Part shown: one piece after another, positions 787-20,000 of the stretch
How positions within the stretch are numbered: the stretch's first letter is position 1
Layout of the letters: every line of letters starts with the position of its first letter
Source: an uncultured virus (IMG/VR IMGVR_UViG_2684622675_000002)
Taxonomy: Duplodnaviria > Heunggongvirae > Uroviricota > Caudoviricetes
Length of the DNA stretch: 20,000 nt
IMG/VR virus record: IMGVR_UViG_2684622675_000002
Coordinates: 46,001 to 66,000 of that record
Direction: 5' to 3' (one strand)
The notes under the pieces: model-generated
Databases searched by the model: none
What the model was told of the DNA's origin: nothing
The model's input: the letters and a program-made list of their open reading frames with translations, nothing else
Program-made: the position numbers and the translations under genes

Positions 787-1280
787 GCGTCTTTGGCTTT
801 ACTCTTATAAATATGTTCTCGCCACTTATTATTTGCGCAGTTTAAAATGTTCTGATACTCATTTTGATATTCCTGAACTCTATCAAGTGTTATTTCTCTA
901 GTTTCATCATCCTCCTCCATCCTTTTATCCATCGTAATTAAATGCCTTAGTTCGTAAAGGTCACAAATTGTGGAGATATTCATTGCCATTCTTTCTTGAT
1001 ACATATATTTGCTAAGAATTTGCCCTGCAAGGTTCGCTAAACAACTAGCTACAAGAGCTACGATAGTAATCCAGAAGAAAGAAAATTTGGTGTTTACTGC
1101 TATCAATATAGTAGTAAGTCCACTCAAAAGCACTTGCCCAAATGAATAGAATTTACTATTCTCCTGATTATATTTACGCTTTGCATTAAATTCTTTTATT
1201 CGAGCATCGATCTCTGATTCCAGTCTGTTTAAGCTCTTTAACTTATGCTCTGTACTCATAAAAAACCACTTTTTGAACAT
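783..1280 (-). CDS. SLATT/DUF4231-like two-transmembrane protein (putative defence effector); start may be the MSTEHK ATG at 1259
   Basis: N-terminal charged helix, two adjacent TM helices (GQVLLSGLTTILIAV, FWITIVALVASCLANLAG), 'YQERM...LYELR' helix and a helical C-terminus, which is the typical SLATT layout. Confidence 0.7.
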   Translation of the reverse strand: MFKKWFFMSTEHKLKSLNRLESEIDARIKEFNAKRKYNQENSKFYSFGQVLLSGLTTILIAVNTKFSFFWITIVALVASCLANLAGQILSKYMYQERMAMNISTICDLYELRHLITMDKRMEEDDETREITLDRVQEYQNEYQNILNCANNKWREHIYKSKAKDA

Positions 1281-1466
1281 GCTTGGAGTGAATACTTTAT
1301 CATACTGATATCACTAAAAATAGATATGGTACCAAGCAATGAATCGACACTATTTTAGCAGCCATTCTTTTCGTTGGTTACACTACCTTTTGGCCATTGA
1401 TAGCCACAGATAATTTCCGCTCTTCGCTGACTATCAAAATTATTAGTGCCTTGCTACAGAGCACAA

Positions 1467-1577
1467 TCAGATCTGGTGACAACTAATGCAAATCATCAGT
1501 ACTTTCCCAAGTTTCCTGAAAATTTCTTCGTTCGCTTTCTTATTCTCACTAGCTCTGTCTAGTACGGTTGAGCCCAT
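1467..1577 (-). CDS. Small ORF or gene remnant, 36 aa (MGSTVLDRASENKKANEEIFRKLGKVLMICISCHQI)
   Basis: Translated by hand; GAGG RBS just upstream of the ATG; below the ORF-track cutoff. Confidence 0.3.
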   Translation of the reverse strand: MGSTVLDRASENKKANEEIFRKLGKVLMICISCHQI

Positions 1578-1778
1578 AGGGAGCCTCAAATTAGTAATAC
1601 TAAGTTATTTAAAAATTATATGAAGGCAGCTATGTATACAGAAGAATAAGATACCTTGTATAAGGAAATGTGTAGCGTGATACCTGATGCGCTCAGAACT
1701 GCGCTAGGGGGGAAGCACGAAAGTTCGGGATTGATGAGAACTGCAATGGAGTTGCCAATAAAATTACTAGAGCAATAG

Positions 1779-1814
1779 AAATGTCAAACCCATTAAGGTC
1801 TAGGTTTGACATTT
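1779..1814 (-). terminator. Inverted repeat / probable terminator downstream of the Cys-rich ORF
   Basis: AAATGTCAAACC (1779-1790) and GGTTTGACATTT (1803-1814) form a perfect 12-bp stem with a 12-nt loop. Confidence 0.55.
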
Positions 1815-1825
1815 GTTATTACTGA

Positions 1826-1975
1826 TTAAGCAACTTTCTTTTCAGAGCAGTTGCAGAGAGGGATAGGGAAAGGTCGCCCTTTTTTTGCGATTCGCACTAC
1901 GCCATCAACACAAGTTGAATAGCGAAAAATGATTTCGCAAGTATTACCACATTTACGACAAGTACCAGTCGCCAT
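1826..1975 (-). CDS. Small Cys-rich putative Zn-ribbon protein, 49 aa (MATGTCRKCGNTCEIIFRYS...PFPIPLCNCSEKKVA)
   Basis: AGGA RBS upstream of the ATG at 1975; CxxC...C...CxC pattern; basic; co-oriented downstream of the HTH-peptidase pair. Confidence 0.7.
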   Translation of the reverse strand: MATGTCRKCGNTCEIIFRYSTCVDGVVRIAKKGRPFPIPLCNCSEKKVA

Positions 1976-2019
1976 GAGGTGCATCCTGTTGTTATACACA
2001 GCCTGTAAACCCATACAGA

Positions 2020-2048
2020 TTGCGTTTTGCCAGGAGAACCGCTATCCT
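2020..2048 (+). promoter_or_regulatory. Predicted sigma70 promoter, antisense to the HTH-peptidase-small protein operon
   Basis: TTGCGT (2020-2025), exact 17-bp spacer, TATCCT (2043-2048). Confidence 0.5.
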
Positions 2049-2054
2049 AAGTTT

Positions 2055-2149
2055 GTAAATATATAGGTGTAGCGATGGGGTTGTCTCCATAGTTACCGGA
2101 ATGTGTTAGCGCACTTCCCGCCCGAAAGCCCTGTTAGCGCAGGGCTTTT
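2055..2149 (+). ncRNA. Putative SymR-like antisense sRNA (~95 nt) with two TTAGCG-loop hairpins
   Basis: Upstream promoter; hairpin GGAATGTG-TTAGCG-CACTTCC recalls the SymR GTGTGTTGGCGCAC hairpin; ends in AAAGCCCTG-TTAGCG-CAGGGCTTTT. Confidence 0.45.
2125..2149. terminator. Bidirectional intrinsic terminator-like hairpin
   Basis: AAAGCCCTG TTAGCG CAGGGCTTTT, directly after the peptidase stop codon. Confidence 0.7.
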
Positions 2150-2639
2150 ACATATAAAAATCAAACGTTAATTGTGCCATAGAATAGCCCATTCTTTCCA
2201 AGACAACCTCCGCAAAAGTATCTGCTTGCCATTCTGCATCTTCTATTTGGAGAGGGTGAGTATTGGAAAAATGAAGCACTGGCTTGTGGCCTAATAACAA
2301 ATGTCCTAATTCATGCATCATTATTGATAGCGCACTTCTTTCACCCATGCTGGCCATCTCATAAATTCGCTTGGGGACAGTTATAGTTAAGGTGCTGGGG
2401 TCACAGTGACCTATGGTTAAATCGAGAGTAATCTTCTCCCATGCTCTGTCCTCCATGACATCGAGTGTTATGCCATAGTAGGCAAGCATTTCAAAAACAT
2501 CATCATAGCGCTTCTTCTTTTTACGCCTCGGTGTTAACCCAAACTCGTTGCAGAAGTTAATGGCTTTATTCGTAATTTCATCTACTTTCATAGGAGATAC
2601 CCTGTTTCCCCTCATTTGATATGTAGCGCTTTGATCCAT
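2148..2639 (-). CDS. ImmA/IrrE family (DUF955) Zn metallopeptidase, short form
   Basis: HELGH (HExxH) motif plus downstream EWQADTFA (ExxAxxFA) motif; follows an XRE HTH gene. Confidence 0.9.
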   Translation of the reverse strand: MDQSATYQMRGNRVSPMKVDEITNKAINFCNEFGLTPRRKKKKRYDDVFEMLAYYGITLDVMEDRAWEKITLDLTIGHCDPSTLTITVPKRIYEMASMGERSALSIMMHELGHLLLGHKPVLHFSNTHPLQIEDAEWQADTFAEVVLERMGYSMAQLTFDFYM

Positions 2640-2647
2640 GGTATCCC

Positions 2648-2998
2648 TTATCGGTTCATTTTTTCTAAAAGCTCAGCAAATTTCTTCAACTGTTGAGGTG
2701 TCCACGGGGACTTGGCAAATCCAGCAACAAGCATTTTCTGCTGCTGGGATAGACCATCTAATGGAACTGATTCATTGGAGACGTCAGCTAATTCTTGTAG
2801 ATTACTAATTTCATAACCTTTTGCTTCAAAGAAACTCTGGATGTTTTTCACCCATTTTCTTGGGATTTTTTTACTGCCGGTTTCTAGTCCGCTCAAGAAC
2901 GCAGATGATGCCCCTAACTCTTCAGCCATGGTTAGTAACGTATGTCCTGTTTCAATCCTCGCTATCCTTACGGCTTTGCCGAATTCAGTGAGTGCCAT
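2648..2998 (-). CDS. XRE-family helix-turn-helix transcriptional regulator
   Basis: FGKAVRIARI...LLTMAEELGASSAFLSGLETGSKKIP is a typical HTH_3 pattern; GAGG RBS. Confidence 0.9.
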   Translation of the reverse strand: MALTEFGKAVRIARIETGHTLLTMAEELGASSAFLSGLETGSKKIPRKWVKNIQSFFEAKGYEISNLQELADVSNESVPLDGLSQQQKMLVAGFAKSPWTPQQLKKFAELLEKMNR

Positions 2999-3200
2999 GT
3001 TTGTTTCCTCAGTATGTGGTTCGGGAGGGTTAGGATTTTAATTATGATTAATATAGCTGGGAAATGTTAGTTAGTAAACCGTTTTGGTTAATTTTTCACT
3101 TTAAATAGTGAAACTCCTGAACAAGTAGTTCATTCCATGAAACTTGCTTATAAGCTAGTTAGCTATGGTTAAATTGGTGATCGGGTATCATATATTTGGC

Positions 3201-3433
3201 TTACGAAGTTTTTACGAATGGTTCCGAATTAATTGATAACTATATGAATCTAAAAGATGTAATGAAAAGTAAACTAAGGTGTTTTACTGAGGGTTTAATA
3301 GATAACAAATTGATTTGAAAGGGAATTATTGATTTTAATCTGAAAGAGGAATCGTATTCGGTCTTTTTTTAATGCTTTGATTTATATGGTTTTTTCTCTC
3401 TTCGTCCGAAAATGTCCGAAATCTCCCCGAAAT
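3201..3433. mobile_element. attP-like phage attachment site, copy 1: left arm repeats 3201-3230, IHF 3303-3315, core 3347-3370, IHF 3370-3382, right arm repeats 3404-3433
   Basis: Core AGGAATCGTATTCGGTCTTTTTTT matches the 3' end of the SdsR/RyeB sRNA as I recall it. Two perfect WATCAANNNNTTR matches on the minus strand (AATCAATTTGTTA, AATCAAAGCATTA). Roughly 10-bp-phased (T/C)(A/C)CGAA repeats on both sides. Lies directly downstream of the integrase stop. Confidence 0.8.
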
Positions 3434-3445
3434 CCTATATCCGGC

Positions 3446-3878
3446 CTAAATTTCTACCCACTCATTTTTACGTGAATCAAGGTATACATTCGTCATTTTC
3501 ATCGACTTGTGGCCGAGTAATTTCTGAGCAAATTCCTTGCTGTATTCTGCTTCATAAAGCCGTGATGCCAGGCTGCGGATCTCGTGAAAGCTGGGAGGAG
3601 ATATTTCATAAACTAGATCGGTAGCCTTCAATGCTTTAACAAATGCTTTAGTGAGTGAGTCGGCATTTAATGCGCCGGGTTCGCGACCAGATTTTTTACT
3701 GGCAGAACTAATGAGATATTCACTCTTACTATTATTTAGACACTGCTCAATAACCTCACCAACAGTGGTATTCATTATTTCCAGTCGTAGTGAGAGTGAG
3801 ATAGCAATTTGATTACCGGTCTTACCCTGTATTACCCACAGTTTTCCATCATGCACATCACCTCTTTTTAATTGTCGG
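3446..3878 (-). pseudogene. int: Lambda-family tyrosine integrase, C-terminal fragment (allele A), 5'-truncated
   Basis: FHEIR (HxxR), LLGH and catalytic Y (TNVYLD) present. Similarity to the longer copy stops at 3878, so the catalytic R region is missing. Confidence 0.9.
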
Positions 3879-4151
3879 CTACCAACAGGAGTTCGGTAAG
3901 GCCAAACAGCAAGCTGCTACTGAATTGGCTGCGGGTGGTGTTGATCCAAGTAGCGGTAAATTTCAGGGAACACTACAAACATTGCAAAGTGACCAGGTGG
4001 CCGGGCAAATAGACACGACCAATCGGGCGCAAACCTCACAACAGGATAAATATGTCGCCGGGTTACAGGATGTGGTGGCAATGGGGGCCGGTCAGAAAGC
4101 TGATGCGTTGTCAGGCTATAGCAACATTGCCAGTCAGAGCTTAAACAAGGC
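3879..4151 (+). pseudogene. Duplicate fragment of the truncated virion protein gene (same as 6073-6345), ends at N
   Basis: Appears identical to 6073-6345 and terminates at N4152. Confidence 0.7.
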
Positions 4152-4152
4152 N

Positions 4153-4959
4153 TAGTAAACCGTTTTGGTTAATTTTTCACTTTAAATAGTGAAACTCCTG
4201 AACAAGTAGTTCATTCCATGAAACTTGCTTATAAGCTAGTTAGCTATGGTTAAATTGGTGATCGGGTATCATATATTTGGCTTACGAAGTTTTTACGAAT
4301 GGTTCCGAATTAATTGATAACTATATGAATCTAAAAGATGTAATGAAAAGTAAACTAAGGTGTTTTACTGAGGGTTTAATAGATAACAAATTGATTTGAA
4401 AGGGAATTATTGATTTTAATCTGAAAGAGGAATCGTATTCGGTCTTTTTTTAATGCTTTGATTTATATGGTTTTTTCTCTCTTCGTCCGAAAATGTCCGA
4501 AATCTCCCCGAAATCCTATATCCGGCCTAAATTTCTACCCACTCATTTTTACGTGAATCAAGGTACACATTAGTCATTTTCATCGACTTGTGGCCGAGTA
4601 ATTTCTGAGCAAATTCTTTACTGTATTCTGCCTCATAGAGCCGTGAGGCCAGGCTGCGAATTTCATGAAAGCTGGGAGGGGATATTTCATAAACTAGATC
4701 GGTAGCCTTCAATGCTTTAACAAATGCTTTAGTGAGTTAGTCGGCATTTAATGCGCGGGGTTCGCGACCAGACTTTTTACTGGCAGAGCTAATAAGATAT
4801 TCACTCTTACTATTATTCAGACACTGCTCAATAACCTCACCAACAGTGGTATTCATTATTTCCAGTCGTAGTGAGAGTGAGATAGCAATTTGATTACCGG
4901 TCTTACCCTGTATTACCCACAGTTTTCCATCATGCACATCACCTCTTTTTAATTGTCGG
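4153..4959 (+). repeat. Direct repeat of 3072-3878 (offset 1081), including att copy 2 (core 4428-4451)
   Basis: Non-coding part appears identical; the integrase part differs by about 17 substitutions, mostly synonymous. Confidence 0.9.
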
Positions 4960-5513
4960 ATATCATCCCGGCGCTGCCCGGTCATTAATGCCAGAGCCAT
5001 GCTGAGTGATACCCACTTGGGTTGCTGCAATGCTGCTAAATGAATCTTACGAAAAGCATCATAGTCGAGCCGTTCCCGCTTAACTTTCGGTGATGGGGTA
5101 CGCGTAGCTTCCACAGGGTTACTGCTAATTAGGCCATCAGCGATGGCCTCTCTAAATACATCGGATAAGACAGACCGTAAATTAACCGCCATTGAACTCT
5201 TACCCTCATCGACATAGGCATTAATAAAATCCGCAATATGCTTTGTGGTAATGGCATCAATCTGCATTTTGCCAAATTTCTGATTGATGTAACCAATCTG
5301 AAGGATCCGCATTTTCATTGTATTTTCAGCTAACCCCCGGCGGTTTAATAACTGGGTATATTGCTTTAGCCAGGTAGCAACCGAATTCACCGCGGGATCT
5401 ATAGGGGTAGGTACTGGAGCTCGAAGCCGCTCCAGCAAAGCGACAGGCTGAAAATTTGATTCAATATAATTATTAGCTTCGATGGCTTGAGCAATAGCAT
5501 CCCTGCGGGTAAT
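4527..5513 (-). pseudogene. int: Lambda-family tyrosine integrase (allele B) with an in-frame nonsense codon at 4737-4739 and a missing N-terminus
   Basis: ORFs 4737..5438 and 4527..4712 are in the same frame, with TCA(Ser)->TAA relative to allele A. Contains the core-binding domain, TGQRRDD, FHEIR and LLGH..Y. The frame extends upstream to ITRRDAIAQAIEANNY, then loses integrase character near 5513. Confidence 0.9.
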
Positions 5514-5537: not shown

Positions 5538-6345
5538 AAAGAGGAATCGTATTCGGTCTTTTTTTAATGCTTTGATTTATATGGTTTTATTTTTAAGATC
5601 CCGAAATTCCCCGAAATTCCCCGAAATCCTATATCCGGCCTAAATTTCTACCCACTCATTTTTACGTGAATCAAGGTATACATTCGTCATTTTCATCGAC
5701 TTGTGGCCGAGTAATTTCTGAGCAAATTCCTTGCTGTATTCTGCTTCATAAAGCCGTGATGCCAGGCTGCGGATCTCGTGAAAGCTGGGAGGAGATATTT
5801 CATAAACTAGATCGGTAGCCTTCAATGCTTTAACAAATGCTTTAGTGAGTGAGTCGGCATTTAATGCGCCGGGTTCGCGACCAGATTTTTTACTGGCAGA
5901 ACTAATGAGATATTCACTCTTACTATTATTTAGACACTGCTCAATAACCTCACCAACAGTGGTATTCATTATTTCCAGTCGTAGTGAGAGTGAGATAGCA
6001 ATTTGATTACCGGTCTTACCCTGTATTACCCACAGTTTTCCATCATGCACATCACCTCTTTTTAATTGTCGGCTACCAACAGGAGTTCGGTAAGGCCAAA
6101 CAGCAAGCTGCTACTGAATTGGCTGCGGGTGGTGTTGATCCAAGTAGCGGTAAATTTCAGGGAACACTACAAACATTGCAAAGTGACCAGGTGGCCGGGC
6201 AAATAGACACGACCAATCGGGCGCAAACCTCACAACAGGATAAATATGTCGCCGGGTTACAGGATGTGGTGGCAATGGGGGCCGGTCAGAAAGCTGATGC
6301 GTTGTCAGGCTATAGCAACATTGCCAGTCAGAGCTTAAACAAGGC
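5538..6345 (+). repeat. Direct repeat of 3343-4151, including att copy 3 (core 5542-5565; variant arm CCGAAATTCC-type repeat x3 at 5599-5628)
   Basis: Appears identical to copy 1 except about 5589-5617 in the arm region; starts right after N5537. Confidence 0.9.
5640..6072 (-). pseudogene. int: Lambda-family integrase C-terminal fragment (allele A)
   Basis: Same sequence as 3446-3878; deletion junction at 6072/6073. Confidence 0.9.
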
Positions 6346-10201: not shown

Positions 10202-13200
10202 ATGACTTACGATCCGCAACAGCAACGTCCAGAAGAACAAACAACTAACAACAATCGTGAAACACTCAATATCCAGCAGCCCGGTGAAAATGCGAATACG
10301 GGGTTCGACTGGGGTGCCGTCAGGGAAGCGCGTGAGGCTGCTGGACGGCAGTCAAAAACTCCACAGGCCAATGATCCAAGCGTAGGTTTAAAAGATGTAC
10401 TCCTTTCTGTGGCCGCAGCTCCAACTGATATTATCAGCGGCAATGCTCAACTGTTTAAGGCTGGCAATCAGCTTTTGGATGATAAAGCATCAGAATATCG
10501 AAGTGGTGAAAAGAAACCGCTGATAGATATTCCGGTTAGTCCTGAAATGTTGAAGGTGATGCGAGACAGTGGCGGTAACTCTTTGTCGCGCGTGGGTAAT
10601 GCTTTCATTGATGGAGTGGGTGAGCTTGCTCAAAGCGCTTCGAAAGAAATCAAAAGCCATTTTAGTGAGGGGGCCAAAGAGGCCGCTGCAATGGACTTTA
10701 TCAATTTTGAGCGAGATAAAAATAAGAATGTGACTGGGATTAAAGTAGGGGCTGGCCTATTTGATAAAGATGCGTGGATGATTAATGCTATACCATCAAT
10801 ATCGCAGATGTTTTTAACGGCAAGTGGTGCAAAGCTAGGGGCTAACGCTGTAGAGAGGATGGTTGAAAAGGGAACTTACAACCGTTTAATTAAGGTACTT
10901 CCTGAAGATGCGGCAAGGGCCGCAGCAAAAGAAACTGCTCAGATAGCAAAAAGAAGAGCTCAAGTAACTGGCTTTGTTGGGGTTTCAGCGGGTACCGCTC
11001 AAGGGCAAGGCGGCATTGATATGCGCGAAGAGACTAACTCCATCCCCTTTGATCAATTATTCGAAAGCACAACATTCCAAAAAGCGTTTGCTGATATTGA
11101 TAGCGATCCCTCTAATTCCTCATTAACTGACACACAAAAATTAACCTTGGCTCGAAGCCAGGTTGCAGAACAAGCTGCTAATAGTGTTACTGCCGATCCT
11201 CGGATGCTGGCTATTAATATTGCCGCTTCTACATTGGGGGATCATACCTTAGCAAAATTGCTTACTAAAAAGATGGCAACTAAAAGTGTTATTTCTAGTG
11301 CGGCGACGGGAACCTTCGCGGAAGGCAGTACTGAGTTTGCTCAAGGTGCCTCCCAGCGTTATGTCCAGAATCAGCAATTAATTAACACCGCAGGCCAAAA
11401 AATTGACCCGATGAAAGATGTTTTTGAAACAGGGGCGAACAATGCAATTGTAGGGGGTGGCATTGGTATGGGGGCCGGTACTGTCGGTGGCATTCGAGGC
11501 CGTAAATCAGCAGCAGAAACCACACCCGAAACTCCAGTTGATGCTGAGGGTTCGCCAGTATCTGAAAATATTGATCCAGCTATTCAGCCAGAAATGACAC
11601 CACAGGCAGAAAATCCGGCCTCTCCAGATGTGGCTGCACAGCAGAATTCAGTGAGTGAAAACGGTGTACCAAATTCCCAGATTGATGATTTCCGTGATAC
11701 CCCGGCTTACTTGCGCCAAGATCCTCGCGTGCAAGGCTTTGCTGATGATAGCGATGTTCAGCGTTCATTGGCCGAGCCAGAGGCACAGCCGACCACACAA
11801 GAGCTTATTCAACAGCAAATGGAGTCAGGGGATCAAGGTTTTACGCCTGATGAGTTAGCAATACTTGAGCAGGCTGACCAGATTCGGGCACAGAGAACGC
11901 CACGCCTACCAGCGCCCGGTAATATTCATCCAGGCGAAGGTTTCCCCATGCCGGGGCCAATTCAAGGGGATGAAACCCAAGCGGGTACCGCACCACAATT
12001 TACTGCTGGTGAGCAAGTCCGTGGCCCAATGTATTTGCCGAGAGAGCAGGCTGAGCAACAAGGTGCGGTGCGCGAAACCCATACCTACGATGGACAAACG
12101 GATCCGCAGGCTATTACCGATAAAAACATCATCTTTGCTGATGGACCGGTAGTTAATCCTGATGATGTCCAATCGGGGCAAGCGCCACAGTTTGAGGGTG
12201 GGCAGCGTAAAGATGTACGCCGCTTTACGAAGGCTATGGGTGGGCAGCCTGAAACCGCCATTACCGATCAGCGTCAGCGTGCTGGTGGTGTCCCTATAGA
12301 TGCTCACACCGAAGCTTATGCTAAAGGGGAAGCACTAGGTGAGTTGAGATTACATGCGGGCAAACCGTTCTCCAGTGAGAAAGTAGCCAGATTCACCAAG
12401 TGGGCCAAGATACCGGGGGCGGTGATTGAACCGGTTGGTGATGGCTTTGGTGTGCGATTGCCGCCTGAACCCACAACGGCTTACACAAAAACAGCGCCCT
12501 CAAATGAGGGCGTTGTTGCATCTGGTGTGCAGCTAACCGGTGAATTAAGACTGCATCTCGGCAAACCCTTCAACAGTGAGAAAGTCGCTAAGTATTCCAA
12601 ATGGGGCAAGATGCCGGGTGCCACGATTGAACCGGTAGGAAAGGGGTACGGTGTCCGATTGCCCGTACCTGAGCCAGCGGGGCAAGCCAAAATCAGGGAC
12701 GCAAAAATTGATGATTTTGGTGAGGAACTTAAGGGGGCGGCGAAGCATAAATGGGGCCAGTTGGCAGAGTCACTGAAAGCCGATCATGATATTGAAGAAA
12801 TCAAAAAACAGCCCCTTTCTAAACTGTTCCCACATCCTGATTACAGCAAAATGCATGAGAGTGGAATTGAATCAGACAAGCTTGCTTTGCTTGCGGCATT
12901 ACGCTCGATTATCCCAACCAAACCCAGCTCTCCATATAAAGTAAACCAATGGGCAGAACAAGTGAAAGGGGTTCGATCTATCGCCAATAGCCTTATGGGG
13001 GGCAATATCAGCGTTGCCGATATTAAAGCTCACTTTCAACGTAGCAAAACCACCTTAAACGCTGTAGCGGATAAGGTCGATTTAATCTCACAATTTAAAC
13101 CAGAGCAGATGGCCGAAGCATCGAAGTACTCAATTAGATCCGGCCATTACACCTACTTTGATGGCAAGAGTTATCCCGGCGGGAAAACCCTATATGAGCT

Positions 13201-15614
13201 GATTACCCCTAGAGGGATGAAAACTGATATTTCAGCGGGTTCAATGTCTGAGCTATTAGTCAAAGCCAAGGCATTTATTGAGGCCAAGATTAATAGTGAT
13301 AAAGGGGAAGTCGCGCCTAAACAGGCTCAGTTAGCACCTAAACAGGCTAAGTTAGAGATCTATACCCGACGGGCAGATAAGAGTGTGTTTATTGGCTACA
13401 AAGGGGCCATGGGCGTTTTACCGCTTAAAGCTGGCTTCAAAACACCTACCGAAGCACGCGCTTATCTGGCAGAAAATCGCGCTGAAATAGAAGCCAAACT
13501 AGATAAATTACGCAAAATATCGCGAGAGGAACAACGCAAATTAACCAACGAACCCCGGATAGGAATCGAACGCCGTAAGGGCAATGTGACGCCTGAACAA
13601 TTTAGTGATGCATTTGGCTTTAGAGGGGTACAGTTTGGTAACTATGTCGAAGGGGCACGTCGTCAATCTGAATTGAACGATACCTATGACTCATTGATTG
13701 ATATGGCCGAATTACTGAATGTGCCACCCAAAGCACTCTCTCTCAATGGTGAATTGGGCCTGGCATTTGGCGCACGGGGTAAGGGCGGAGCCAAAGCACA
13801 CTATGAGCCGGTGCAAGTGGTTATCAATCTAACCAAAGGTAATGGCGCTGGCTCACTGGCACATGAGTGGTTCCATGCACTGGATAACTATTTTGGTACC
13901 TTTGATGTACATGGCGAGGCGTCCGGTAAGCGGTCCTCCGAATTTATTACCGATCGTAGACGTTCGCGTTATGAGTTTAGCAGTGGTAAAAGGCAAGAGA
14001 TTACTCATCCAGTCAGGCAAGAGGTATATGACGCATTTAAGAGCGCAGTCAATAAAGTCACTAGTAGCGGAATGATGGCGCGGGCTGCACTGCTGGACGG
14101 TGGCCGAAGCAAAGCCTACTGGACGACTAAACTTGAAATGTCAGCGCGAGCATTTGAACGCTATCTGCTGGATAAAGCGCAGAGTAAAGGCATCACTAAC
14201 GATTATCTGGTGAACCTGCGCAAAGCTGACGAACATGCAAACCCTGAAACTTATGCTTACCCAACGGAAGCCGAATTAAACAGCGGTGTGCGTCAGGCTT
14301 TTGATCACCTATTCCAAACCATCAAAACCAAGCCAACCGATAAAGGTATCGCTTTCTATTCGCGTAAGGGTACTGACATTGGCAAAGGCAATGTGATTTC
14401 AGATACCGGTCATACTGCCGCTACCGGTGTGCTGGAGGTGATTGAATCACTGAACAAGATGGACTTTGAGCGTATCGGCAAAGATGTGGTGAAGGTGTTT
14501 ATGGATGGGCAGGAGAAGCTAGTGCAGGTCAATGATCCAGAACTGTATCGTGCCTTTACCATGATTGACCTTGAGCGTAGTAATTCCACCTTTATGAAGG
14601 CAGCACGCACGGCTAAAAAGGTGCTGACCGTCAGCACCACATCGATGCCTGATTTTATCATTCGTAACTTTATGCGCGATTCTATCCATTCATGGGCCAT
14701 TAACAAAGATGGCTTTAAACCGGTGACTGCCTCATGGGCCGGATTCAAAAAAGCGCTGCGCACTGATGATAGCCTGGTAGATATGATGTTTGCCGGTGCC
14801 ACTTTTGGTGGAGGTTATTCGAATGTTTATGATCCGGCATCTACAGCTAAAACCATTCGTAGTGTTCTACGGCGTAAAGGTTACAACGACAGTCAGATAC
14901 AAGAATTTGAGTCCTCAATTGTTCGTAGTAGTAAAGAGGTCATGGGCAAGGTTGAGCAAGGGTTACATAAATATAAGAACCTAAGTGAAGCAGCAGAGAA
15001 CGCCAACCGGCTGGCCACGTATGAAGCCGCCATTAAATCGGGAAAAAGTAAAGCGCAGGCGGCATTTGATGACCAGACTAGCCTGTTAATGCGTGAAATA
15101 GGTGAGGCGACCAATATGTCACCGAAGATGCTGGATCACATTGTGATGGGCTACACCGGCAGCTTAGGCAGCTATGTGATGGGCGCTACCAATCTGCTGA
15201 TGCGTAACCTGAAAGATTACGGCGAAACCCCGGCCATGCGTTTGGATGAACTGCCGGTGATTAAATCCTTCTTCCGGGGTTCAGATCCGGCCAAGTCTAC
15301 CCAGTTCACCGAAGATTTTTACCGCATGATGACCGAAGCCAACCAGATAAACAGCACTATTAACAGTTTCCGTAAGCAGGGGCGATGATGCCAATGAATT
15401 GATAGAGGAAAATAGAGGGAAATTATCGCAGCGTCAGGGGCTAACAGCGACTCAGAAACAAGTGAAAGCACTGAATGCCCAGATTGAGATGATGAGGCGG
15501 GACCGGATACTCACGGCGGATCAGAAAAGAGAAAAAATTGACCGACTGATGGCAACAAGAAATAAACTGGTACAGCAGGCGGTGGAAAGGGTGAATCCGT
15601 ATTTTAATAAGTGA
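10202..15614 (+). pseudogene. Large polyvalent virion/ejected protein (LPD5-, LPD1/zincin-like and LPD38-associated regions), frameshifted near 15384 and probably internally deleted
   Basis: 1728-aa ORF with DDFGEELKGAAKH, GVQFGNYV..AHEWFHALD and RNFMRDS..ENANRLA motifs. The C-terminus continues in another frame (GDDANELIEENRGKL...FNK, ORF 15399..15614). Confidence 0.8.
12338..12675 (+). repeat. Tandem ~45-aa repeated domain within the giant protein
   Basis: GELRLHAGKPFSSEKVARFTKWAKIPGAVIEPVGDGFGVRLP vs GELRLHLGKPFNSEKVAKYSKWGKMPGATIEPVGKGYGVRLP. Confidence 0.85.
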
Positions 15615-15620
15615 CTTAAA

Positions 15621-15642
15621 AGGGAGTTTGAAAGAACTCCCT
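15621..15642. terminator. Hairpin/terminator after the giant gene
   Basis: AGGGAGTT-TGAAAG-AACTCCCT between convergent genes. Confidence 0.65.
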
Positions 15643-15741: not shown

Positions 15742-16266
15742 TCAACCAATTTTCCAGAATGGACGGGTGCAAATATTTTTTACATTCCAATACTTAACTG
15801 GGTTCTTCGCATGATTTTTGATTACATCATCGGGGTTTACTGATGCATCCGGGATGAAGTCTGCAGGGACCTGAATGGCTTGGCTTCCCGAGGCGACATA
15901 ATAATACTTCCCTGCTTCCGGAATGAGTGACGAATGGGAGTTTCGAATATATCCTCCCCCTTGATTTTTGATCTGCGAAACAGAGTATAGGACATTGGGT
16001 TTTATCTTACTAACGACTACATTACCCTTAGCTTGAAAGATATTTGAGTCAAGTTCATAGCGATCAGACATATCGTAGCAATTGCTTTGGTTGTTGAACG
16101 TGTAAGAACCTAGATAGATGGTGCCTACATTTCCCTCCCTGTTAAGTACATACAACGTCGCAGCATCGCTTCCAGTGTAGTCTTTGTAATCAAGAGGTAA
16201 TACTTTAGCGCACCCTGTAAGCCCCAGAGAGATTGCAGCTACGATGACGGTTTTATTTAATTTCAT
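15742..16266 (-). CDS. Lipoprotein moron, 174 aa (start MKLNKT)
   Basis: AAGGA RBS before the ATG at 16266; signal peptide with lipobox LTGC. Confidence 0.85.
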   Translation of the reverse strand: MKLNKTVIVAAISLGLTGCAKVLPLDYKDYTGSDAATLYVLNREGNVGTIYLGSYTFNNQSNCYDMSDRYELDSNIFQAKGNVVVSKIKPNVLYSVSQIKNQGGGYIRNSHSSLIPEAGKYYYVASGSQAIQVPADFIPDASVNPDDVIKNHAKNPVKYWNVKNICTRPFWKIG

Positions 16267-16428
16267 ATCGTCCTTTATTGTGTGTAAGTTCGTTGCCCAT
16301 GTTAAATACAATAATTAGCAGATAGGTGCATTATCGGCTGTATTTGTTTTTTCTTCAATCATATCAATGTCCTTTCTTCGCCGATTGTCAGATTGAGTGG
16401 CTACTAATCCATGTTGCAGCATCAATAA

Positions 16429-16509
16429 TTATTTGAGAGCATCTTTAACGATGACGAACAGAACCAATAGCAGAATAAATCCGATAATCCCTAAAATGAT
16501 GCTGGCATT
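16429..16509 (-). pseudogene. 3' remnant of a small membrane protein gene, paralogue of 19788..20000
   Basis: Translates NASIILGIIGFILLLVLFVIVKDALK* vs NTSIILGIIGFILLLVLFVIVNHALK*; 16383-16509 aligns with 19742-19868. Confidence 0.85.
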
Positions 16510-16642
16510 CTAACCTCAGAACAGAAACGAGAAAGAATCGACAGAATGATGGCAACCAGAAATAAACTGGTACAGCAGGCGGTGGAAAGAGTGAATCCGT
16601 ATTTTAATAAGTAAATTGAAAGGGAGTTTGGAAAGACTCCCT
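16507..16642 (+). pseudogene. Second, diverged copy of the giant gene 3' end plus its terminator hairpin
   Basis: ILTSEQKRERIDRMMATRNKLVQQAVERVNPYFNK* (16507-16614) vs ILTADQKREKIDRLMATRNKLVQQAVERVNPYFNK* (15507-15614); hairpin AGGGAGT...ACTCCCT at 16621-16642. Confidence 0.9.
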
Positions 16643-16726
16643 GATTTGTTAGTTTTTGGGTAAAGTATCTGCAGGAATCATGGCAGCGCGTGTGGTGAGC
16701 TTTATTTTTTTTGAAACGGAGTACCA

Positions 16727-17380
16727 GTGAAGAAAGAAAAAGGTATTTCTAAGTACAAGTTGAATCAAATCGCTACAGAATCTTTGAGGAATACTATCCG
16801 GCTTCACTTTGACTCAGTGCTGCTTTATGAGAACGGATCGTATCCAAGTGCATTTCAACTTTCGGTCTTGGCTCTTGAAGAGTTCTCAAAGGCCAATTGG
16901 GTGGACCACTATATTTGGTCATCTGAAACCAATGGAGGATACCCAGATATTGAATTCGAGCAGGAGTGGTTAAGGCTTCTGTATCTACACCCAAAGAAGC
17001 AATGGAACTTTGTAGCAAGAGAAACAAATGATTACTCTCCAAAGTTTATTTCTCTGATTCAGAACAGAAAGCTAGAAGAAAAAAAGCAAAATGCTATATA
17101 TGTCGGCTTATCGCGCACAAAAGGAAAAATTGATACAGATAGTCGAGTTTCTACCCCTTTGAAAATTAAACAAAAAGATGCTAAGCAGTTTATTTCAATA
17201 ATCAATGATGAGCTACTTAGAATATGCACTCGTATTGAAGATAACGAATATTACTTCGAAGGCGGGGAAAATATGGACGAAGTGTTCGACTATGAGATTT
17301 ATAAAAAACTTTTGAAATGGCCTCACAAGAGTGGAATATATAATAATGGCTGGAGAAAGAAAAACCACCTACGAAACTAA
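16727..17380 (+). CDS. abiV: AbiV-family HEPN abortive infection protein
   Basis: N..RL..D..LLY..GSY.SA..LSVLALEEFSK, H..K (LHPKKQ) and KQNAIYV motifs match the HEPN_AbiV pattern; GGAG RBS before a GTG start. Confidence 0.8.
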   Translation: MKKEKGISKYKLNQIATESLRNTIRLHFDSVLLYENGSYPSAFQLSVLALEEFSKANWVDHYIWSSETNGGYPDIEFEQEWLRLLYLHPKKQWNFVARETNDYSPKFISLIQNRKLEEKKQNAIYVGLSRTKGKIDTDSRVSTPLKIKQKDAKQFISIINDELLRICTRIEDNEYYFEGGENMDEVFDYEIYKKLLKWPHKSGIYNNGWRKKNHLRN

Positions 17381-17433
17381 CAAACGCATGCTGCGAGTTG
17401 GTTTTCCGCTGTGCAGCCAAATCAGCTACAAAT
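17375..17433 (+). other. Degenerate, right-truncated integron attC-like site
   Basis: The stop codon sits within AACTAAC (R''-like), followed by AAACGCATG and the imperfect stem AGTTGGTTT...AAATCAGCT; no GTTRRRY R' box. Confidence 0.5.
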
Positions 17434-17583
17434 TAGTGATTTCAAGATAATCGATTGAAATAAAGGTAGATCAGCATTAATTTGAGATGAGTAAAAATCA
17501 TGAAAGAAGACAGGAAAATGTTCGTCGTGCTGACCCCGAGTCTCCTATTGAATTGTTATCCCTCATTAAGGATTTGCATATAA

Positions 17584-19020
17584 ATGGAAAACCCAAAATT
17601 ATTCATTTCTTACAGTTGGTCTAACCCAACCCATGAACAATGGGTGATCGACTTAGCTAACGAGCTAACAGAATCTGGTGTTCATGTAATTCTTGATAAA
17701 TGGGATCTAAAAGAAGGTCATGATTCAGTTGCTTTTATGGAAAAGATGGTTACAGATCCCCAGATAACCAAGGTAGCTATCATATGTGACGAGATATACG
17801 CAACAAAAGCTGATGGTCGTGCTGGAGGTGTAGGTACTGAAACTCAAATCATCTCTCGTGAAGTTTATGAGAATCAAGAACAAGGAAAATTTGTAGCGAT
17901 CATTCCTGAGAGAGATTCCCAGGGTAAAGCATACCTACCGACATATTATAAATCCCGAATATATATTGATTTAAGCGAAGCCGACAGCTATACCGATAAT
18001 TTCGAAAAACTGTTACGTTGGGTATATGACAAACCCCTTTATACGAGGCCTGTGATAGGAAAACAGCCTTCTTTTTTGGATAAATCAGATGGAATATCGC
18101 TGGGAACAACATCAATACACAAGAGAGCTATATCAGCAATTAAAGAAAATAAACCATTTATATCAGGTGCATTGGACGAGTATTTTTCTACCTTTAGTAG
18201 TAATCTTGAAAAATTTAGAATCACTGATAAAGAAGGTGAGTTTGATGATAAAATCATTGCCAGTATAGATGATTTTACCCCGTACAGGAACGAGGCAATT
18301 ACATTATTTATTGCTCTCGCACAATATGCACCAACAGAAGAAAACATCCTTAAAGTTCATCGTTTCTTTGAAGCCTTGATCCCCTATATGAGTCACCCTG
18401 TAAATGGTAACCACTGGAATGAATGGGACTTCGATAATTTTAAGTTTATTATTCATGAACTTTTCCTATATGTGGTCGCTATTTTCACAAAATATGAAAA
18501 GTTCACAGAGGTTAACGTATTATTGTCACAGCAATACTATGTAAAAGAAAGAACTAATTATGGTAAGAATCCAATGGTTGGATATGAGGTTTTCCGAGAA
18601 TACTTACGTTCCTTAGGGCATCGAAATGAACGGTTGAAACTAGGTCGTTTATCTATTTGTGCAGATCTACTTGAGCAAAGAAGTAAAAGTTCTGGTATAG
18701 AATTTCGTTATTTAATGCAAGCTGATTTTATATTATTTATTCGAAATGGAATGCAGAAAACTGGCCTTTATACCCGTTGGTTTCCAGACACTTTACTGTA
18801 TGTTGGTCATTTTCATAGTGCATTTGAAATTTTTGCAAGATCTTCATCAAAGTCATACTTTGAAAAATCAAAATGTATTCTAGGCATAGATAAACCATCA
18901 GATCTTAATGAGTTGATGGAGGCTTATAGAACAGATACTCAAAGTGTACCAAGATGGCAGTTCGAGTCATTTATCCCTTCGGTATTACTTGGCTTTGAAC
19001 AATTAGCAACAAAAGTATAA
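17584..19020 (+). CDS. SEFIR/TIR-domain anti-phage protein (putative NADase), 478 aa
   Basis: KLFISYSW...WV..LA..L...GV.VILDKWDL..G.D...FME and GGVGTE (putative catalytic Glu), plus a helical C-terminal domain. Confidence 0.88.
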   Translation: MENPKLFISYSWSNPTHEQWVIDLANELTESGVHVILDKWDLKEGHDSVAFMEKMVTDPQITKVAIICDEIYATKADGRAGGVGTETQIISREVYENQEQGKFVAIIPERDSQGKAYLPTYYKSRIYIDLSEADSYTDNFEKLLRWVYDKPLYTRPVIGKQPSFLDKSDGISLGTTSIHKRAISAIKENKPFISGALDEYFSTFSSNLEKFRITDKEGEFDDKIIASIDDFTPYRNEAITLFIALAQYAPTEENILKVHRFFEALIPYMSHPVNGNHWNEWDFDNFKFIIHELFLYVVAIFTKYEKFTEVNVLLSQQYYVKERTNYGKNPMVGYEVFREYLRSLGHRNERLKLGRLSICADLLEQRSKSSGIEFRYLMQADFILFIRNGMQKTGLYTRWFPDTLLYVGHFHSAFEIFARSSSKSYFEKSKCILGIDKPSDLNELMEAYRTDTQSVPRWQFESFIPSVLLGFEQLATKV

Positions 19021-19084
19021 CAAGAAATTGCTATCGGAGAATTTTTCACCTGCGCTCAAAATTATTCAGAGCGCAGCGTTTGAG
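19015..19084 (+). other. Degenerate integron attC-like site (70 bp)
   Basis: GTATAAC (includes the stop codon) ... AATTTT-tcacctgcgctc-AAAATT ... GCGCAGC-GTTTGAG. Confidence 0.6.
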
Positions 19085-19213
19085 TCTATTTCTTTGTTAT
19101 AATAGTCCGAGGTATTTCCTGTGAGTAGCTCCATGTCAAGAGCAAAAGTTGATATATCTCTTTGTTTTATTCCGTTCTGTAGATTTGTGTTTTACTATTA
19201 AAGTTTTCTTGTA

Positions 19214-19615
19214 TTGGAGAATGATACAATGGGTTTTATTATGAATGATGTTATGTGGTGGAAAATATCGCTTAATGGGTTTATGAATGGCTGGTTACCT
19301 GGCATTCTGACATTTCTATTAGGGTTGTGGTTTTCTAAAATATCTGACCGGAGAAAGCTTAGGCAGAAACTGAAGAATGATATTCTGGAGACTTTCATTC
19401 CTTTTTTTAATTCTGGCGAAACTATATCAATATCTATCGCAGAAGATGCTTGTCAAAAAATCAGAATGACGTTTAAGGCCTACAAAAGAATCTATCCAAA
19501 TATATTAAATAGGGAATCAGAAAAGAAATTAGGAGAATTACTCAACGAAGGTTTTGTAGTGAATAATACAGTAAATAAAAAATTTCTAGAGCCTGAATAC
19601 ATCCAAAACTTATAG
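19214..19615 (+). CDS. Hypothetical protein with N-terminal TM helix (start may be ATG 19229 or 19241)
   Basis: ORF track; GWLPGILTFLLGLWFS hydrophobic segment followed by basic residues; AT-rich. Confidence 0.65.
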   Translation: MENDTMGFIMNDVMWWKISLNGFMNGWLPGILTFLLGLWFSKISDRRKLRQKLKNDILETFIPFFNSGETISISIAEDACQKIRMTFKAYKRIYPNILNRESEKKLGELLNEGFVVNNTVNKKFLEPEYIQNL

Positions 19616-19787
19616 TTGGTGTATTGGGTTACGAATGGTTACCTCACCAGTGAAGATAATAAATAATGTAATTTTTCGTTTACCGCGTCGGATTTAGAAA
19701 ATGAGCACCGGTGGCACTTTGGCTGCTTCACGTTCTTAGCAGACTGTTAGATTGAGTGGCGATTAATCTACATTACAGCATCAGTAA

Positions 19788-20000
19788 TTATTTGAGGGCG
19801 TGATTCACAATGACGAACAGAACCAATAACAGAATAAATCCGATGATGCCTAAAATAATGCTGGTATTACTGTCCATGTGCATATTACCTTTGCCTGCCA
19901 TCAGGTAAGCAGCAATAACGAAAGGAATGCAGAGAGCAGGGTGGATGGTGATCATTACGGCGGCCAGTATTAGGCAGACTATAAATAGTGTTGATGTCAT
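19788..20000 (-). CDS. Small hydrophobic phage membrane protein, 70 aa
   Basis: Almost entirely hydrophobic; the diverged copy at 16429-16509 preserves the frame, which supports coding. Confidence 0.75.
   Translation of the reverse strand: MTSTLFIVCLILAAVMITIHPALCIPFVIAAYLMAGKGNMHMDSNTSIILGIIGFILLLVLFVIVNHALK

What the first reader, a model, noticed from the sequence alone, without database searches (positions are those of the whole stretch)
16727..19084. AbiV and SEFIR/TIR genes both end in integron attC-like sites: integron cassettes captured by a prophage hotspot
Seen: both stop codons lie in a TAACAA motif that opens an imperfect palindrome with related centres (TTTTCCGCTGTGCAGCCAAAT; TTTTCACCTGCGCTCAAAAT). 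The second closes with GCGTT at about 70 bp, and the first is cut short. No intI is in the window. Known: cassette ORFs typically stop within the R'' RYYYAAC box, and integron cassettes carry anti-phage genes. Inference: gene flow of defence cassettes from integrons into an enterobacterial prophage, with attC sites now decaying.
Basis: partly seen in the sequence, partly recalled or inferred. Interest (0 to 1): 0.75.

Follow-up and report, generated by a model that had tools for sequence, protein, structure and literature searches.

The report
Ex-integron defence cassettes in a prophage
Two anti-phage genes in a variable spot of an enterobacterial prophage were once integron gene cassettes and still carry the broken remains of their integron recombination sites, which shows defence genes moving from integrons into phages.

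Summary
AbiV (16727-17380) and bSEFIR (17584-19020) both stop inside a TAACAA that opens a sequence homologous to true attC sites. Close relatives of both genes sit in integron cassette arrays with intact attCs. Homology between independent arrays starts and ends exactly at the G|TT crossover. In one Pseudoalteromonas genome AbiV is the first cassette beside an eroded intI.

A home-made attC covariance model gives held-out attCs of these cassettes 26-50 bits. The window's two sites get only 9.1 and 8.2 bits, and neither folds end to end. The AbiV attC lacks its last 13 nt, including R'. The bSEFIR attC keeps R'' and GCGTT but has lost L-box pairing. They are fossils.

The genes lie in a cargo hotspot between two convergent conserved phage genes. 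Related prophages show empty sites (12-32 bp) and cargo up to 8.5 kb. The phage is a relative of 933W-like phages found in Enterobacteriaceae genomes. No intI is present in the 66-kb record.

How the cassettes entered the phage is unresolved. Integron-borne defence genes and phage-borne attCs are each in print, so this is a new member of a known kind.

The parts
15399..15614 (+). Gene X. It is the C-terminal piece of the large polyvalent (LPD5/LPD1/LPD38) protein gene 10202-15388 and forms the left conserved flank of the hotspot. A terminator-like hairpin follows at 15622-15642.
   Evidence: 35 viral loci carry it. It matches the C-terminal ends of large phage protein families. In L005 it is fused in one 802-aa ORF. 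The hairpin was read.
15742..16311 (-). Cargo 1: a lipoprotein-like ORF of 189 aa with no family assigned.
   Evidence: The same gene follows X in L018 at 98% aa.
16374..16663 (.). Remnant junction. A 3' piece of gene Y (16374-16509) is joined to a 3' piece of gene X plus its terminator (16507-16663). It is the scar of an unequal join of two hotspot alleles.
   Evidence: Direct repeats D1 (83%) and D2 (84%), alignments, terminator 16621-16642. L004 has cargo 2 without this scar.
16667..16701 (+). 35 nt between the last bases shared with other hotspot alleles and the AbiV cassette. It may be the 3' end of an upstream attC, with T in place of the crossover G.
   Evidence: Left junction read. The best match is to the 3' end of an attC in L062, but p is about 0.075, which is not significant.
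16702..17433 (+). AbiV gene cassette: 5' leader, ORF 16727-17380 (HEPN_AbiV, 217 aa) and attC remnant 17375-17433. The remnant keeps R'' AACTAAC, the left arm, the loop and part of the right arm. The L' end and R' are missing.
   Evidence: Pfam HEPN_AbiV 1e-26. Flanks compared with 15 genome loci. 46/60 identity to the L053 attC, then the last 13 nt are absent, z=15.9. Model score 8.2 bits.
17434..17555 (+). 122-nt spacer of unknown origin that ends in ...GAATTG, the G before the bSEFIR cassette's TT.
   Evidence: No significant likeness to attC 3' ends or to any fetched locus.
17556..19078 (+). bSEFIR gene cassette: leader TTATCCCTCATTAAGGA..., ORF 17584-19020 (478 aa) and a decayed attC.
   Evidence: PADLOC bSEFIR 1.3e-124, Pfam SEFIR 1.8e-15. 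The 5' end is colinear with cassettes that start G|TTATGCC..TTAAGGA. Homology with L005 ends at GCGTTTG.
19015..19084 (+). Decayed attC of the bSEFIR cassette. It has R'' GTATAAC (the stop is inside it), a 28-nt unpaired left arm, an 8-bp hairpin CTGCGCTC/GAGCGCAG and an R'-like GTTTGAG.
   Evidence: 54/72 identical to the intact attC of L112, z=11.4. Model score 9.1 bits, E=1.5, with the L box unpaired. No end-to-end fold.
19214..19615 (+). Third cargo gene (133 aa, phrog_26730, function unknown). No evidence of cassette origin.
   Evidence: 0 of 401 genomes matched. Only the sister contig matched in viral contigs.
19788..20000 (-). Gene Y: a 70-aa hydrophobic protein with no family match, the right conserved flank of the hotspot.
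   Evidence: Found in 27 of 35 X-bearing loci at 12 bp to 8.5 kb from X. No Pfam or PHROG family.

Best explanation
AbiV and bSEFIR are two single-gene anti-phage genes that began as integron gene cassettes. The donor was probably a chromosomal integron of marine Gammaproteobacteria using one attC family. They are now fixed as cargo in a variable hotspot of a temperate 933W-like phage of Enterobacteriaceae, between the end of the large polyvalent virion-protein gene (X) and a small membrane-protein gene (Y).

Their attC sites are vestiges. The AbiV site has lost the R' box, where the integrase cuts. The bSEFIR site has lost the L-box pairing and folds as a short off-centre hairpin. An integron integrase should therefore no longer move them.

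They now travel with the phage, and by ordinary recombination in or near the conserved flanks. The Y/X scar at 16374-16663 records one such unequal join.

In a lysogen the two genes would protect the host against other phages by abortive infection. AbiV would act as a HEPN-type nuclease and bSEFIR by NAD+ depletion.

**Shown:** cassette ancestry, the state of the sites, and the hotspot.
**Inferred:** direction and route of transfer, loss of recombination activity, expression and defence function.
For: **AbiV as a cassette**
- 16 genome loci hold a relative, at 87-91% aa in seven genera including Pseudoalteromonas, Marinobacter and Amphritea.
- Likeness between these loci begins at G|TTAGTTTCTGAA and ends at ...GCGGGCG|TT. 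The DNA beyond differs in each locus, and the upstream neighbours end in ...GGC|GTTAG.
- The model finds an attC abutting the stop in 11 of 16 loci. All 57 of 57 hits are on the gene strand.
- In L053, intI pieces (111.7 and 58.1 bits to TIGR02249) lie about 260 bp upstream and divergent.

**bSEFIR as a cassette**
- An attC abuts the stop in 12 of 80 metagenome loci, and 23 of 80 loci hold at least one. All 32 of 32 hits are on the gene strand.
- Genome loci L067 and L072 score 29.4 and 49.6 bits.

**Window sites as homologues of attCs**
- Site 2 is 54/72 identical to the L112 attC (z=11.4). Site 1 is 46/60 identical to the L053 attC (z=15.9).
- One bSEFIR cassette (L095) carries the AbiV-type attC, so the two sites belong to one attC family.

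**Decay**
- 9.1 and 8.2 bits, against 26-50 bits for nine held-out sites.
- Folds.

**Model specificity**
- One hit, the L005 homologue of site 2, in 507 kb of phage loci.
- 0 hits in 864 kb and 0 in 29 kb.

**Hotspot**
-.
- GC is 0.34-0.41 across the insert and 0.45-0.54 in the neighbouring phage gene.

**Host family**
-.
Against: - The window sites themselves do not reach significance with the model (E=1.5 and 2.5). The case rests on homology to intact sites elsewhere.
- The model is my own, built from 28 sites in six loci with a shortened calibration. It is not IntegronFinder's.
- No array with AbiV next to bSEFIR was found, so the donor is unknown.
- The closest cassette copies are only 82% (bSEFIR) and 91% (AbiV) identical in protein.
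- The third cargo gene and the 122-nt spacer have no cassette evidence.
- Most bSEFIR relatives in phage contigs have no attC. L006-L009 and L011 gave no hit.
- Expression and defence were not tested, and no promoter-like site was found just upstream of AbiV.
Confidence: 0.85

Rival explanations
1. The cassettes were put into the phage genome by an integron integrase acting at secondary (attG-type) sites or at a phage-borne attC. The phage hotspot would then have worked for a time as a cassette platform, and the sites decayed afterwards.
For: - The bSEFIR unit has exact cassette ends...G|TTATCCC at 17555/17556 and ...GCG|TT at 19078/19079.
- Likeness between the window and L005 stops within a few bases of that crossover, and different cargo follows in each.
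- In a P2-like Psychromonas prophage (L014=L054) the AbiV cassette and the next cassette have intact attCs, 37.2 and 30.4 bits, with an exact G|TTAG left end.
- Integrase-catalysed insertion at genomic attG sites is reported (Loot et al., bioRxiv 10.1101/2022.09.11.507474, abstract read).
Against: - The left end of the whole insert (16667) is 35 nt before the AbiV cassette start, not at a G|TT.
- No intI is in the 66-kb record.
- No attC was found in 26 other hotspot loci searched or in 80 P2-like integrase loci, so such capture is rare at best.
- No empty site was found for the L014 insertion.
Confidence: 0.25
2. The two sites, or at least site 2, are still usable attC sites for an integron integrase.
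For: - Site 2 keeps R'' and a GTT at the right distance, and it is the best hit of the model in the window.
- attC recognition is known to depend on structure more than on sequence (recalled).
- The L005 version scores 26.3 bits when extended to a second GCGTT 30 nt further on.
Against: - Site 1 has no R' at all.
- Site 2 has no L-box pairing. Even with the R box forced it folds as a branched structure, unlike the single hairpin with three bulged bases seen in L112, L095, L075 and L053.
- It scores 9.1 bits against 48.7 for its closest intact relative.
Confidence: 0.1
3. There is no integron ancestry. The post-stop sequences are ordinary terminators or chance palindromes.
For: - TAACAA is not enriched in the window.
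- Site 2's stable element is a plain 8-bp GC-rich hairpin.
- The model E-values in the window are above 1.
Against: - Colinear homology of both sites to attCs that score 33-49 bits.
- The same genes sit as cassettes in arrays.
- The intact relatives show the R box, the 2x2 internal loop and bulged bases.
Confidence: 0.02
4. Flow went the other way. Phage genes were recruited into integrons and gained attCs there.
For: How cassettes are born is not known (recalled). bSEFIR relatives without attC occur in several phage contigs.
Against: - The phage copies carry truncated and mutated versions of sites that are intact in arrays. A gene leaving a phage would carry no attC piece.
- The insert's GC is far below the phage's.
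- Only 2 of 35 hotspot loci besides the window hold these genes.
Confidence: 0.03

Closest known systems
Integron gene cassettes encoding anti-phage defence (sedentary chromosomal integrons as 'biobanks'; Darracq et al., bioRxiv 10.1101/2024.07.02.601686, passages read)
   Same: Single small defence genes, each followed by an attC. AbiV is named there among the most frequent known systems in integrons. That paper also notes that homologues outside integrons are often in prophages.
   Different: Here the cassettes are outside any integron, inside a phage hotspot, with attCs that are truncated or decayed and no intI in the record. 'SEFIR' does not occur in that paper's main text; its supplements could not be seen.
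[quoted passage not shown] 2023, Front Microbiol, PMC9892861; abstract, section 3.1 and passages read)
   Same: Phage genomes carrying cassettes and attC sites taken from chromosomal integrons.
   Different: Those cases have attCs that IntegronFinder recognises, some shown to recombine. Defence cargo and prophage hotspots are not discussed in the parts I read. Here the sites are fossils, and the host family rarely has chromosomal integrons (the last point is recalled).
Prophage defence hotspots (variable cargo between conserved phage genes, as described for P2- and P4-like elements; recalled, not read here)
   Same: Conserved flanking genes, empty sites, and allelic cargo that is often defence genes. 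L005 has an Mrr_cat nuclease.
   Different: This hotspot lies after the large polyvalent protein gene of a 933W-like phage. I did not find it described, but I made no dedicated literature search for it.
Cassette insertion at genomic attG sites (Loot et al., bioRxiv 10.1101/2022.09.11.507474; abstract read)
   Same: It would explain isolated cassettes with exact G|TT ends outside integrons.
   Different: The insert's outer left junction is not at a G|TT, and no integrase is at hand. This is untested here.

Membership tests
integron attC site | R'' box (RYYYAAC) at the 5' end, often holding the stop codon (consensus recalled) | tested here: met
   Site 1 has AACTAAC (17375-17381) and site 2 has GTATAAC (19015-19021). 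Each has one departure from the consensus. These are the same boxes as in the intact relatives L053 and L112.
integron attC site | R' box (GTTRRRY) pairing with R'' and holding the G|TT crossover | tested here: not met
   Site 1 lacks it: the last 13 nt of the relative's site are missing. Site 2 has GTTTGAG at 19078-19084, which departs from the consensus at two places and pairs only through AAC/GTT.
integron attC site | L''/L' pairing next to a short unpaired spacer, giving one long hairpin on the bottom strand | tested here: not met
   Both window sites have 0 end-to-end pairs in the free fold, and site 2 gives a branched fold when the R box is forced. The intact sites L053, L014, L067, L072, L010, L095 and L075 fold as one hairpin. 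The model marks the L box of site 2 as unpaired.
integron attC site | Extrahelical (bulged) bases on the bottom strand | tested here: not met
   Three single-base bulges at the same places in L053, L095, L112 (R box forced) and L075. There is no such pattern in the window sites.
integron attC site | Score with an attC covariance model | tested here: not met
   9.1 bits (E=1.5) and 8.2 bits (E=2.5) with my own model R1. Held-out true sites score 26-50 bits. IntegronFinder's model was not available.
integron gene cassette (ancestry of the two genes) | The same gene bounded by G|TT and its own attC in independent arrays, with an integron integrase nearby | tested here: met
   AbiV: with eroded intI beside it in L053. 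bSEFIR. Full intI genes exist in two further AbiV-holding genomes, but their linkage to the cassette is not known.
AbiV (HEPN_AbiV) | Match to the family profile over its full length | tested here: met
   Pfam PF18728: 94.4 bits against a cut-off of 27.1, profile positions 3-154 of 155. The PADLOC AbiV model matches only weakly (1e-5, 34 residues). An R-x4-H stretch (RLLYLH) is in the translation; that this is the HEPN motif is recalled. Activity was not tested.
bSEFIR defence protein | N-terminal SEFIR domain and full-length match to the defence-system profile | tested here: met
   PADLOC PDLC03957 1.3e-124 over residues 1-476. Pfam SEFIR: 57.9 bits against a cut-off of 23, residues 5-129. 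Defence and NAD+ depletion are reported for Bacillus SEFIR proteins (bioRxiv 10.1101/2022.05.11.491447 and 10.1101/2024.02.11.579819, passages read). Not tested for this protein.
prophage cargo hotspot | Conserved flanking genes with empty and differently filled alleles in related phages | tested here: met
   Y was found in 27 of 35 X-bearing loci. In the 22 loci measured, the X-Y gaps were 12, 12, 28 and 32 bp, and 362 bp to 8,487 bp in the other 18.

The most novel reading that the evidence does not exclude
Temperate phages act as shuttles that carry defence cassettes out of the chromosomal integrons of marine bacteria into bacterial families that have no such integrons. Phage hotspots would serve, at least briefly, as landing pads where an integron integrase inserts or swaps cassettes. 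Three hints point that way: the exact G|TT ends of the bSEFIR unit, the break in likeness with L005 at that crossover, and the intact two-cassette cluster in a P2-like Psychromonas prophage.
Probability: 0.2. Interest if true: 0.75.

Novelty: new member of a known kind. Interest (0 to 1): 0.55.

Why it matters
It gives a sequence-level trace, with attC fossils, that links two large pools of bacterial immune genes: integron cassette arrays and prophage hotspots. It suggests that part of the prophage defence repertoire was drawn from integrons across wide taxonomic distances.

AbiV copies about 90% identical in protein lie in seven genera including Pseudoalteromonas, Marinobacter, Psychromonas, Oceanospirillum and Amphritea, and here in a phage of Enterobacteriaceae.

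attC remnants could be used as a marker to look for more such transfers. They would also help date when a cassette left the integron system.

Tried and rejected
- **Rfam.** An E-value scan of 16000-20000 gave only chance matches.
- **Megablast.** The region gave no match against E. coli genomes or phage records, and neither did the phage part against E. coli genomes.
- **My first attC detectors.** Detectors based on box complementarity plus a forced fold were far too permissive. They gave about equal counts on both strands and served only to pick obvious sites by eye for the model.
- **Upstream attC remnants.** I tested whether 16672-16708 is the 3' half of an upstream attC. The best match had p of about 0.075, so I do not claim it. 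The same test on the end of the 122-nt spacer gave p of about 0.32.
- **Spacer and the stretch after site 2.** blastn against all fetched loci gave nothing.
- **Third cargo gene.** 0 of 401 genomes matched, and only the sister contig matched in viral contigs.
- **Empty site for the L014 insertion.** The closest relatives of its integrase have other cargo and no alignable junction.
- **Sequencing runs.** 21 runs were listed (20 holding at least part of the stretch, 2 of them all of it) under coded names, which gave no host name. I did not pursue it.
- **The genome search usage.** I then went through handles as the tool advises.
- **Terminator idea.** Site 2's hairpin is not listed by the terminator scan, because its loop is 11 nt and the T run is weak.
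- **Earlier findings of this scan.** Nothing was returned.
Full report
**What is there**

The window is the last 20 kb of a 66-kb provirus record.

- ORF 16727-17380 is an AbiV-family HEPN protein: Pfam PF18728, 1e-26, 94.4 bits.
- ORF 17584-19020 is a full-length match to the bSEFIR defence protein: PADLOC 1.3e-124, Pfam SEFIR 1.8e-15.
- Both stop codons lie in TAACAA, at 17378 and 19018.
- TAACAA by itself is not enriched: 18 in the window against 16.3 expected.
- The motif shared by the two downstream sequences, TTTTCNNCTGYGC, occurs only at these two places in the 66-kb record. I chose that pattern after seeing the sites.

**The genes are integron cassettes elsewhere: AbiV**

A scan of one genome per species found 16 loci with an AbiV relative. 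Copies at 87-91% protein identity lie in Pseudoalteromonas, Marinobacter, Psychromonas, Oceanospirillum, Amphritea and a Chromatiaceae bacterium, with weaker ones in Simiduia, Photobacterium, Herbaspirillum, Serratia and others.

Printing the flanks shows classic cassette behaviour.
- Likeness between loci begins at G|TTAGTTTCTGAA.
- It ends at ...GCGGGCG|TT.
- The DNA outside those points differs in every locus.
- The upstream neighbours end in ...GGC|GTTAG.

In Pseudoalteromonas sp. ASV78 (L053) the cassette is the first one beside the remains of an integron integrase gene. Two frames match TIGR02249 at 111.7 and 58.1 bits. They lie on the opposite strand about 260 bp upstream.

**An attC model and its controls**

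No attC model is in Rfam, so I built one.
- I took 28 obvious attCs from arrays in six loci, leaving out the AbiV attC of the 90%-identical copies (A3).
- The structure given was the R box plus the L box. The L box shows compensatory changes at 5 of 6 pairs. 74% of cells are paired against 61.5% in shuffles, with 0 of 500 shuffles reaching the observed value.
- The model is R1. Its calibration is shortened, so E-values are rough.

Scores of held-out sites:

| Site | Bits |
|---|---|
| AbiV attCs in L014, L061, L051, L055 | 37.2, 33.3, 32.7, 28.8 |
| bSEFIR attCs in L072, L067 | 49.6, 29.4 |
| Two neighbouring cassettes | 30.4, 39.4 |

Specificity was good.
- One hit at E<=1 in 507 kb of phage loci, and that hit is the L005 homologue of site 2.
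- None at E<=0.1 in 864 kb of P2-like prophage loci.
- None at E<=1 in 29 kb of enterobacterial hotspot loci.

Over the 16 AbiV loci the model gives 57 hits, all on the gene strand. An attC abuts the AbiV stop in 11 of 16 loci. Three of those 11 sites were in the training set.

**The genes are integron cassettes elsewhere: bSEFIR**

- In 400 genomes sampled from the class of the Pseudoalteromonas genome, 5 hold a relative. In three of them (L067, L072, L068) the stop is followed by a TAAC...GCGTT element.
- A metagenome scan found 285 relatives, of which the best 80 were kept.
- The model gives 32 hits in 23 of those 80 loci, all on the gene strand. In 12 of 80 the attC abuts the stop.
- Many of these contigs end soon after the gene, so the counts are floors.
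- The cassettes begin G|TTATGCC..TTAAGGA. The window reads G|TTATCCCTCATTAAGGA at 17555/17556.

**State of the two sites in the window**

The two candidate sites are the best hits of the model in the 20-kb window with filters off, but they are weak.
- 19015-19084: 9.1 bits, E=1.5, with the L box marked unpaired.
- 17375-17403: 8.2 bits, E=2.5, using a spurious nearby GTT.

Direct alignment explains this.
- Site 1 matches the L053 AbiV attC at 46 of the first 60 aligned columns (z=15.9). The last 13 nt, which hold the L' end and R', are then missing.
- Site 2 is 54/72 identical to the intact 72-nt attC of the bSEFIR cassette in L112 (z=11.4), which itself scores 48.7 bits.
- Four consecutive bases at the foot of site 2's left arm are changed, and its right arm carries further changes and a 2-nt gap.

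Bottom-strand DNA folds of intact sites (L053, L014, L067, L072, L010, L095, L075) give one hairpin. It has the AAC/GTT stem, a 2x2 internal loop and single bulged bases. L112 gives the same shape when the R box is forced. The two window sites give 0 end-to-end pairs. Site 2 folds as an 8-bp hairpin (CTGCGCTC/GAGCGCAG) with a 28-nt unpaired left arm, and stays branched even when the R box is forced.

One bSEFIR cassette (L095) carries the AbiV-type attC.

**The hotspot**

The insert lies between two convergent conserved genes.
- X (15399-15614) is the C-terminal piece of the 1728-aa polyvalent protein gene. It is fused to it in L005.
- Y (19788-20000) is a 70-aa hydrophobic protein with no family match.

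35 viral loci carry X, and Y is found in 27 of them. X-Y distances were measured in 22 of these loci.
- 12 bp in two loci, and 28 and 32 bp in one locus each. These are empty sites.
- 362 bp to 8,487 bp in the other 18.

Relation to the two closest alleles:
- One sister contig (L004=L013=L017) has X|AbiV|bSEFIR|orf133|Y at 97% identity, without cargo 1.
- L005 (=L022) has bSEFIR but no AbiV. Just after X's terminator it still keeps the right part of the AbiV attC, so it is a deletion derivative and not a precursor.
- Its other cargo includes an Mrr_cat nuclease.

In the window, 16374-16663 is a 3' piece of Y joined to a 3' piece of X with its terminator. This is the scar of an unequal join between an X|lipoprotein|Y allele, seen in L018, and the X|AbiV-bSEFIR|Y allele.

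The GC of the insert is 0.34-0.41, against 0.45-0.54 in the polyvalent protein gene.

**Route of entry: open**

- The outer left junction of the insert is at about 16666/16667, 35 nt before the AbiV cassette start. It is therefore not at a G|TT.
- Those 35 nt resemble the 3' end of a short attC with T in place of the crossover G, but the match is not significant (p about 0.075).
- That would fit capture of a piece of an array by illegitimate recombination.
- Against a purely illegitimate history, the bSEFIR unit has exact cassette ends. Likeness to L005 also stops within a few bases of its crossover, with different cargo beyond.
- No intI is in the record.
- I found no donor array with the two cassettes side by side.

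**Host**

- The phage's ejection-type protein is 34% identical to proteins of Stx-converting short-tailed phages.
- The LPD5 part is 66-67% identical in DNA to the same phages, and all 188 matching records are Escherichia, Shigella or Stx phages.
- No E. coli genome matches at megablast level.
- The X region matches 8 of 351 species genomes of the family of a Serratia genome, 2 of them at 91-94%. It matches 3 of 401 genomes of its order.
- The phage family therefore lives in Enterobacteriaceae. The exact host is not known.

**What is in print**

- Integrons as stores of defence cassettes, with AbiV among the commonest known systems in them: Darracq et al., bioRxiv 10.1101/2024.07.02.601686. 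I read passages. Its supplements are closed and may list SEFIR.
- Integron fragments and attC clusters in 21 phages: Qi et al. 2023, PMC9892861. I read the abstract, section 3.1 and passages.
- Integrase-catalysed insertion at attG sites: Loot et al., bioRxiv 10.1101/2022.09.11.507474, abstract only.
- SEFIR defence and NAD+ depletion: passages in 10.1101/2022.05.11.491447 and 10.1101/2024.02.11.579819.
- In the listings of three searches I saw no paper that describes decayed attCs beside defence genes in a prophage hotspot. That covers listings only.
- The architecture of attC (R/L boxes, bulged bases, G|TT crossover) and the HEPN motif are recalled knowledge.

**Verdict**

The piece is a new member of known kinds (integron cassettes, phage-borne attCs, prophage defence hotspots) and not a new kind. 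It offers a clear fossil record of integron-to-phage flow across bacterial orders.

Noticed in passing
window 16374-16663: A 3' piece of gene Y is joined to a 3' piece of gene X plus its terminator, so two hotspot alleles sit in tandem. Extra partial X copies also occur downstream of X in other loci (L025, L030, L031, L036, L048) and in two Enterobacteriaceae genomes (G753, G987). Unequal joins therefore seem to recur at this hotspot.
   Followed up: partly
L014 (= L054, Psychromonas aquimarina) 2942-4668: A P2/186-like prophage (Int_N integrase, S24 CI repressor, CP76 CII) carries cassettes between int and cI. The AbiV cassette has an intact attC (37.2 bits). A TIR-domain cassette has a ~100-nt attC (30.4 bits). 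A third gene is followed by only the start of an attC.
   Followed up: partly
L014 5360-7578: Four copies of a different ~40-nt imperfect palindrome (GGGCCAGGTCTTGCGTTTTG...) each follow a plus-strand ORF, at spacings of 548, 813 and 818 nt. They have no TAAC/GTT ends. Their nature is unknown.
   Followed up: no
window 3446-3856, 4737-5438, 5640-6050: Two identical 136-aa integrase C-terminal ORFs flank a 233-aa integrase fragment on the minus strand. This looks like a duplicated or interrupted phage integrase gene next to the virion genes.
   Followed up: no
window 154-2998: A low-GC stretch (0.32-0.44) holds a weak SLATT-like two-transmembrane ORF (783-1280) with a neighbour (154-786), and an HTH plus M78-peptidase pair (2148-2998). 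It may be further accessory or defence cargo.
   Followed up: no
window 15388-15399: The large polyvalent protein ORF stops at 15388, and its usual C-terminal end continues as the separate 71-aa ORF X. In L005 the same end is part of one 802-aa ORF. This could be a split gene or a sequencing frameshift.
   Followed up: no
window 19620-19670: After the third cargo gene, GTTA...GAATGG...ACCAGTGAAGATAATAAA resembles the 5' start of the AbiV cassette (repeat D8, 15 of 18 identical). It may be the stump of a second AbiV-type cassette. A match this short is not significant on its own.
   Followed up: no
L005 7432-7531: The L005 version of site 2 scores 26.3 bits when the model extends it to a second GCGTT 30 nt beyond the first. 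It does not fold end to end. It may be the end of another attC lying in tandem.
   Followed up: partly
attC loops in L056, L062, L065, L067, L072, L112 and both window sites: The loop motif CGCTGCGCT, or a near variant, recurs in attCs of different cassettes and different genomes.
   Followed up: no
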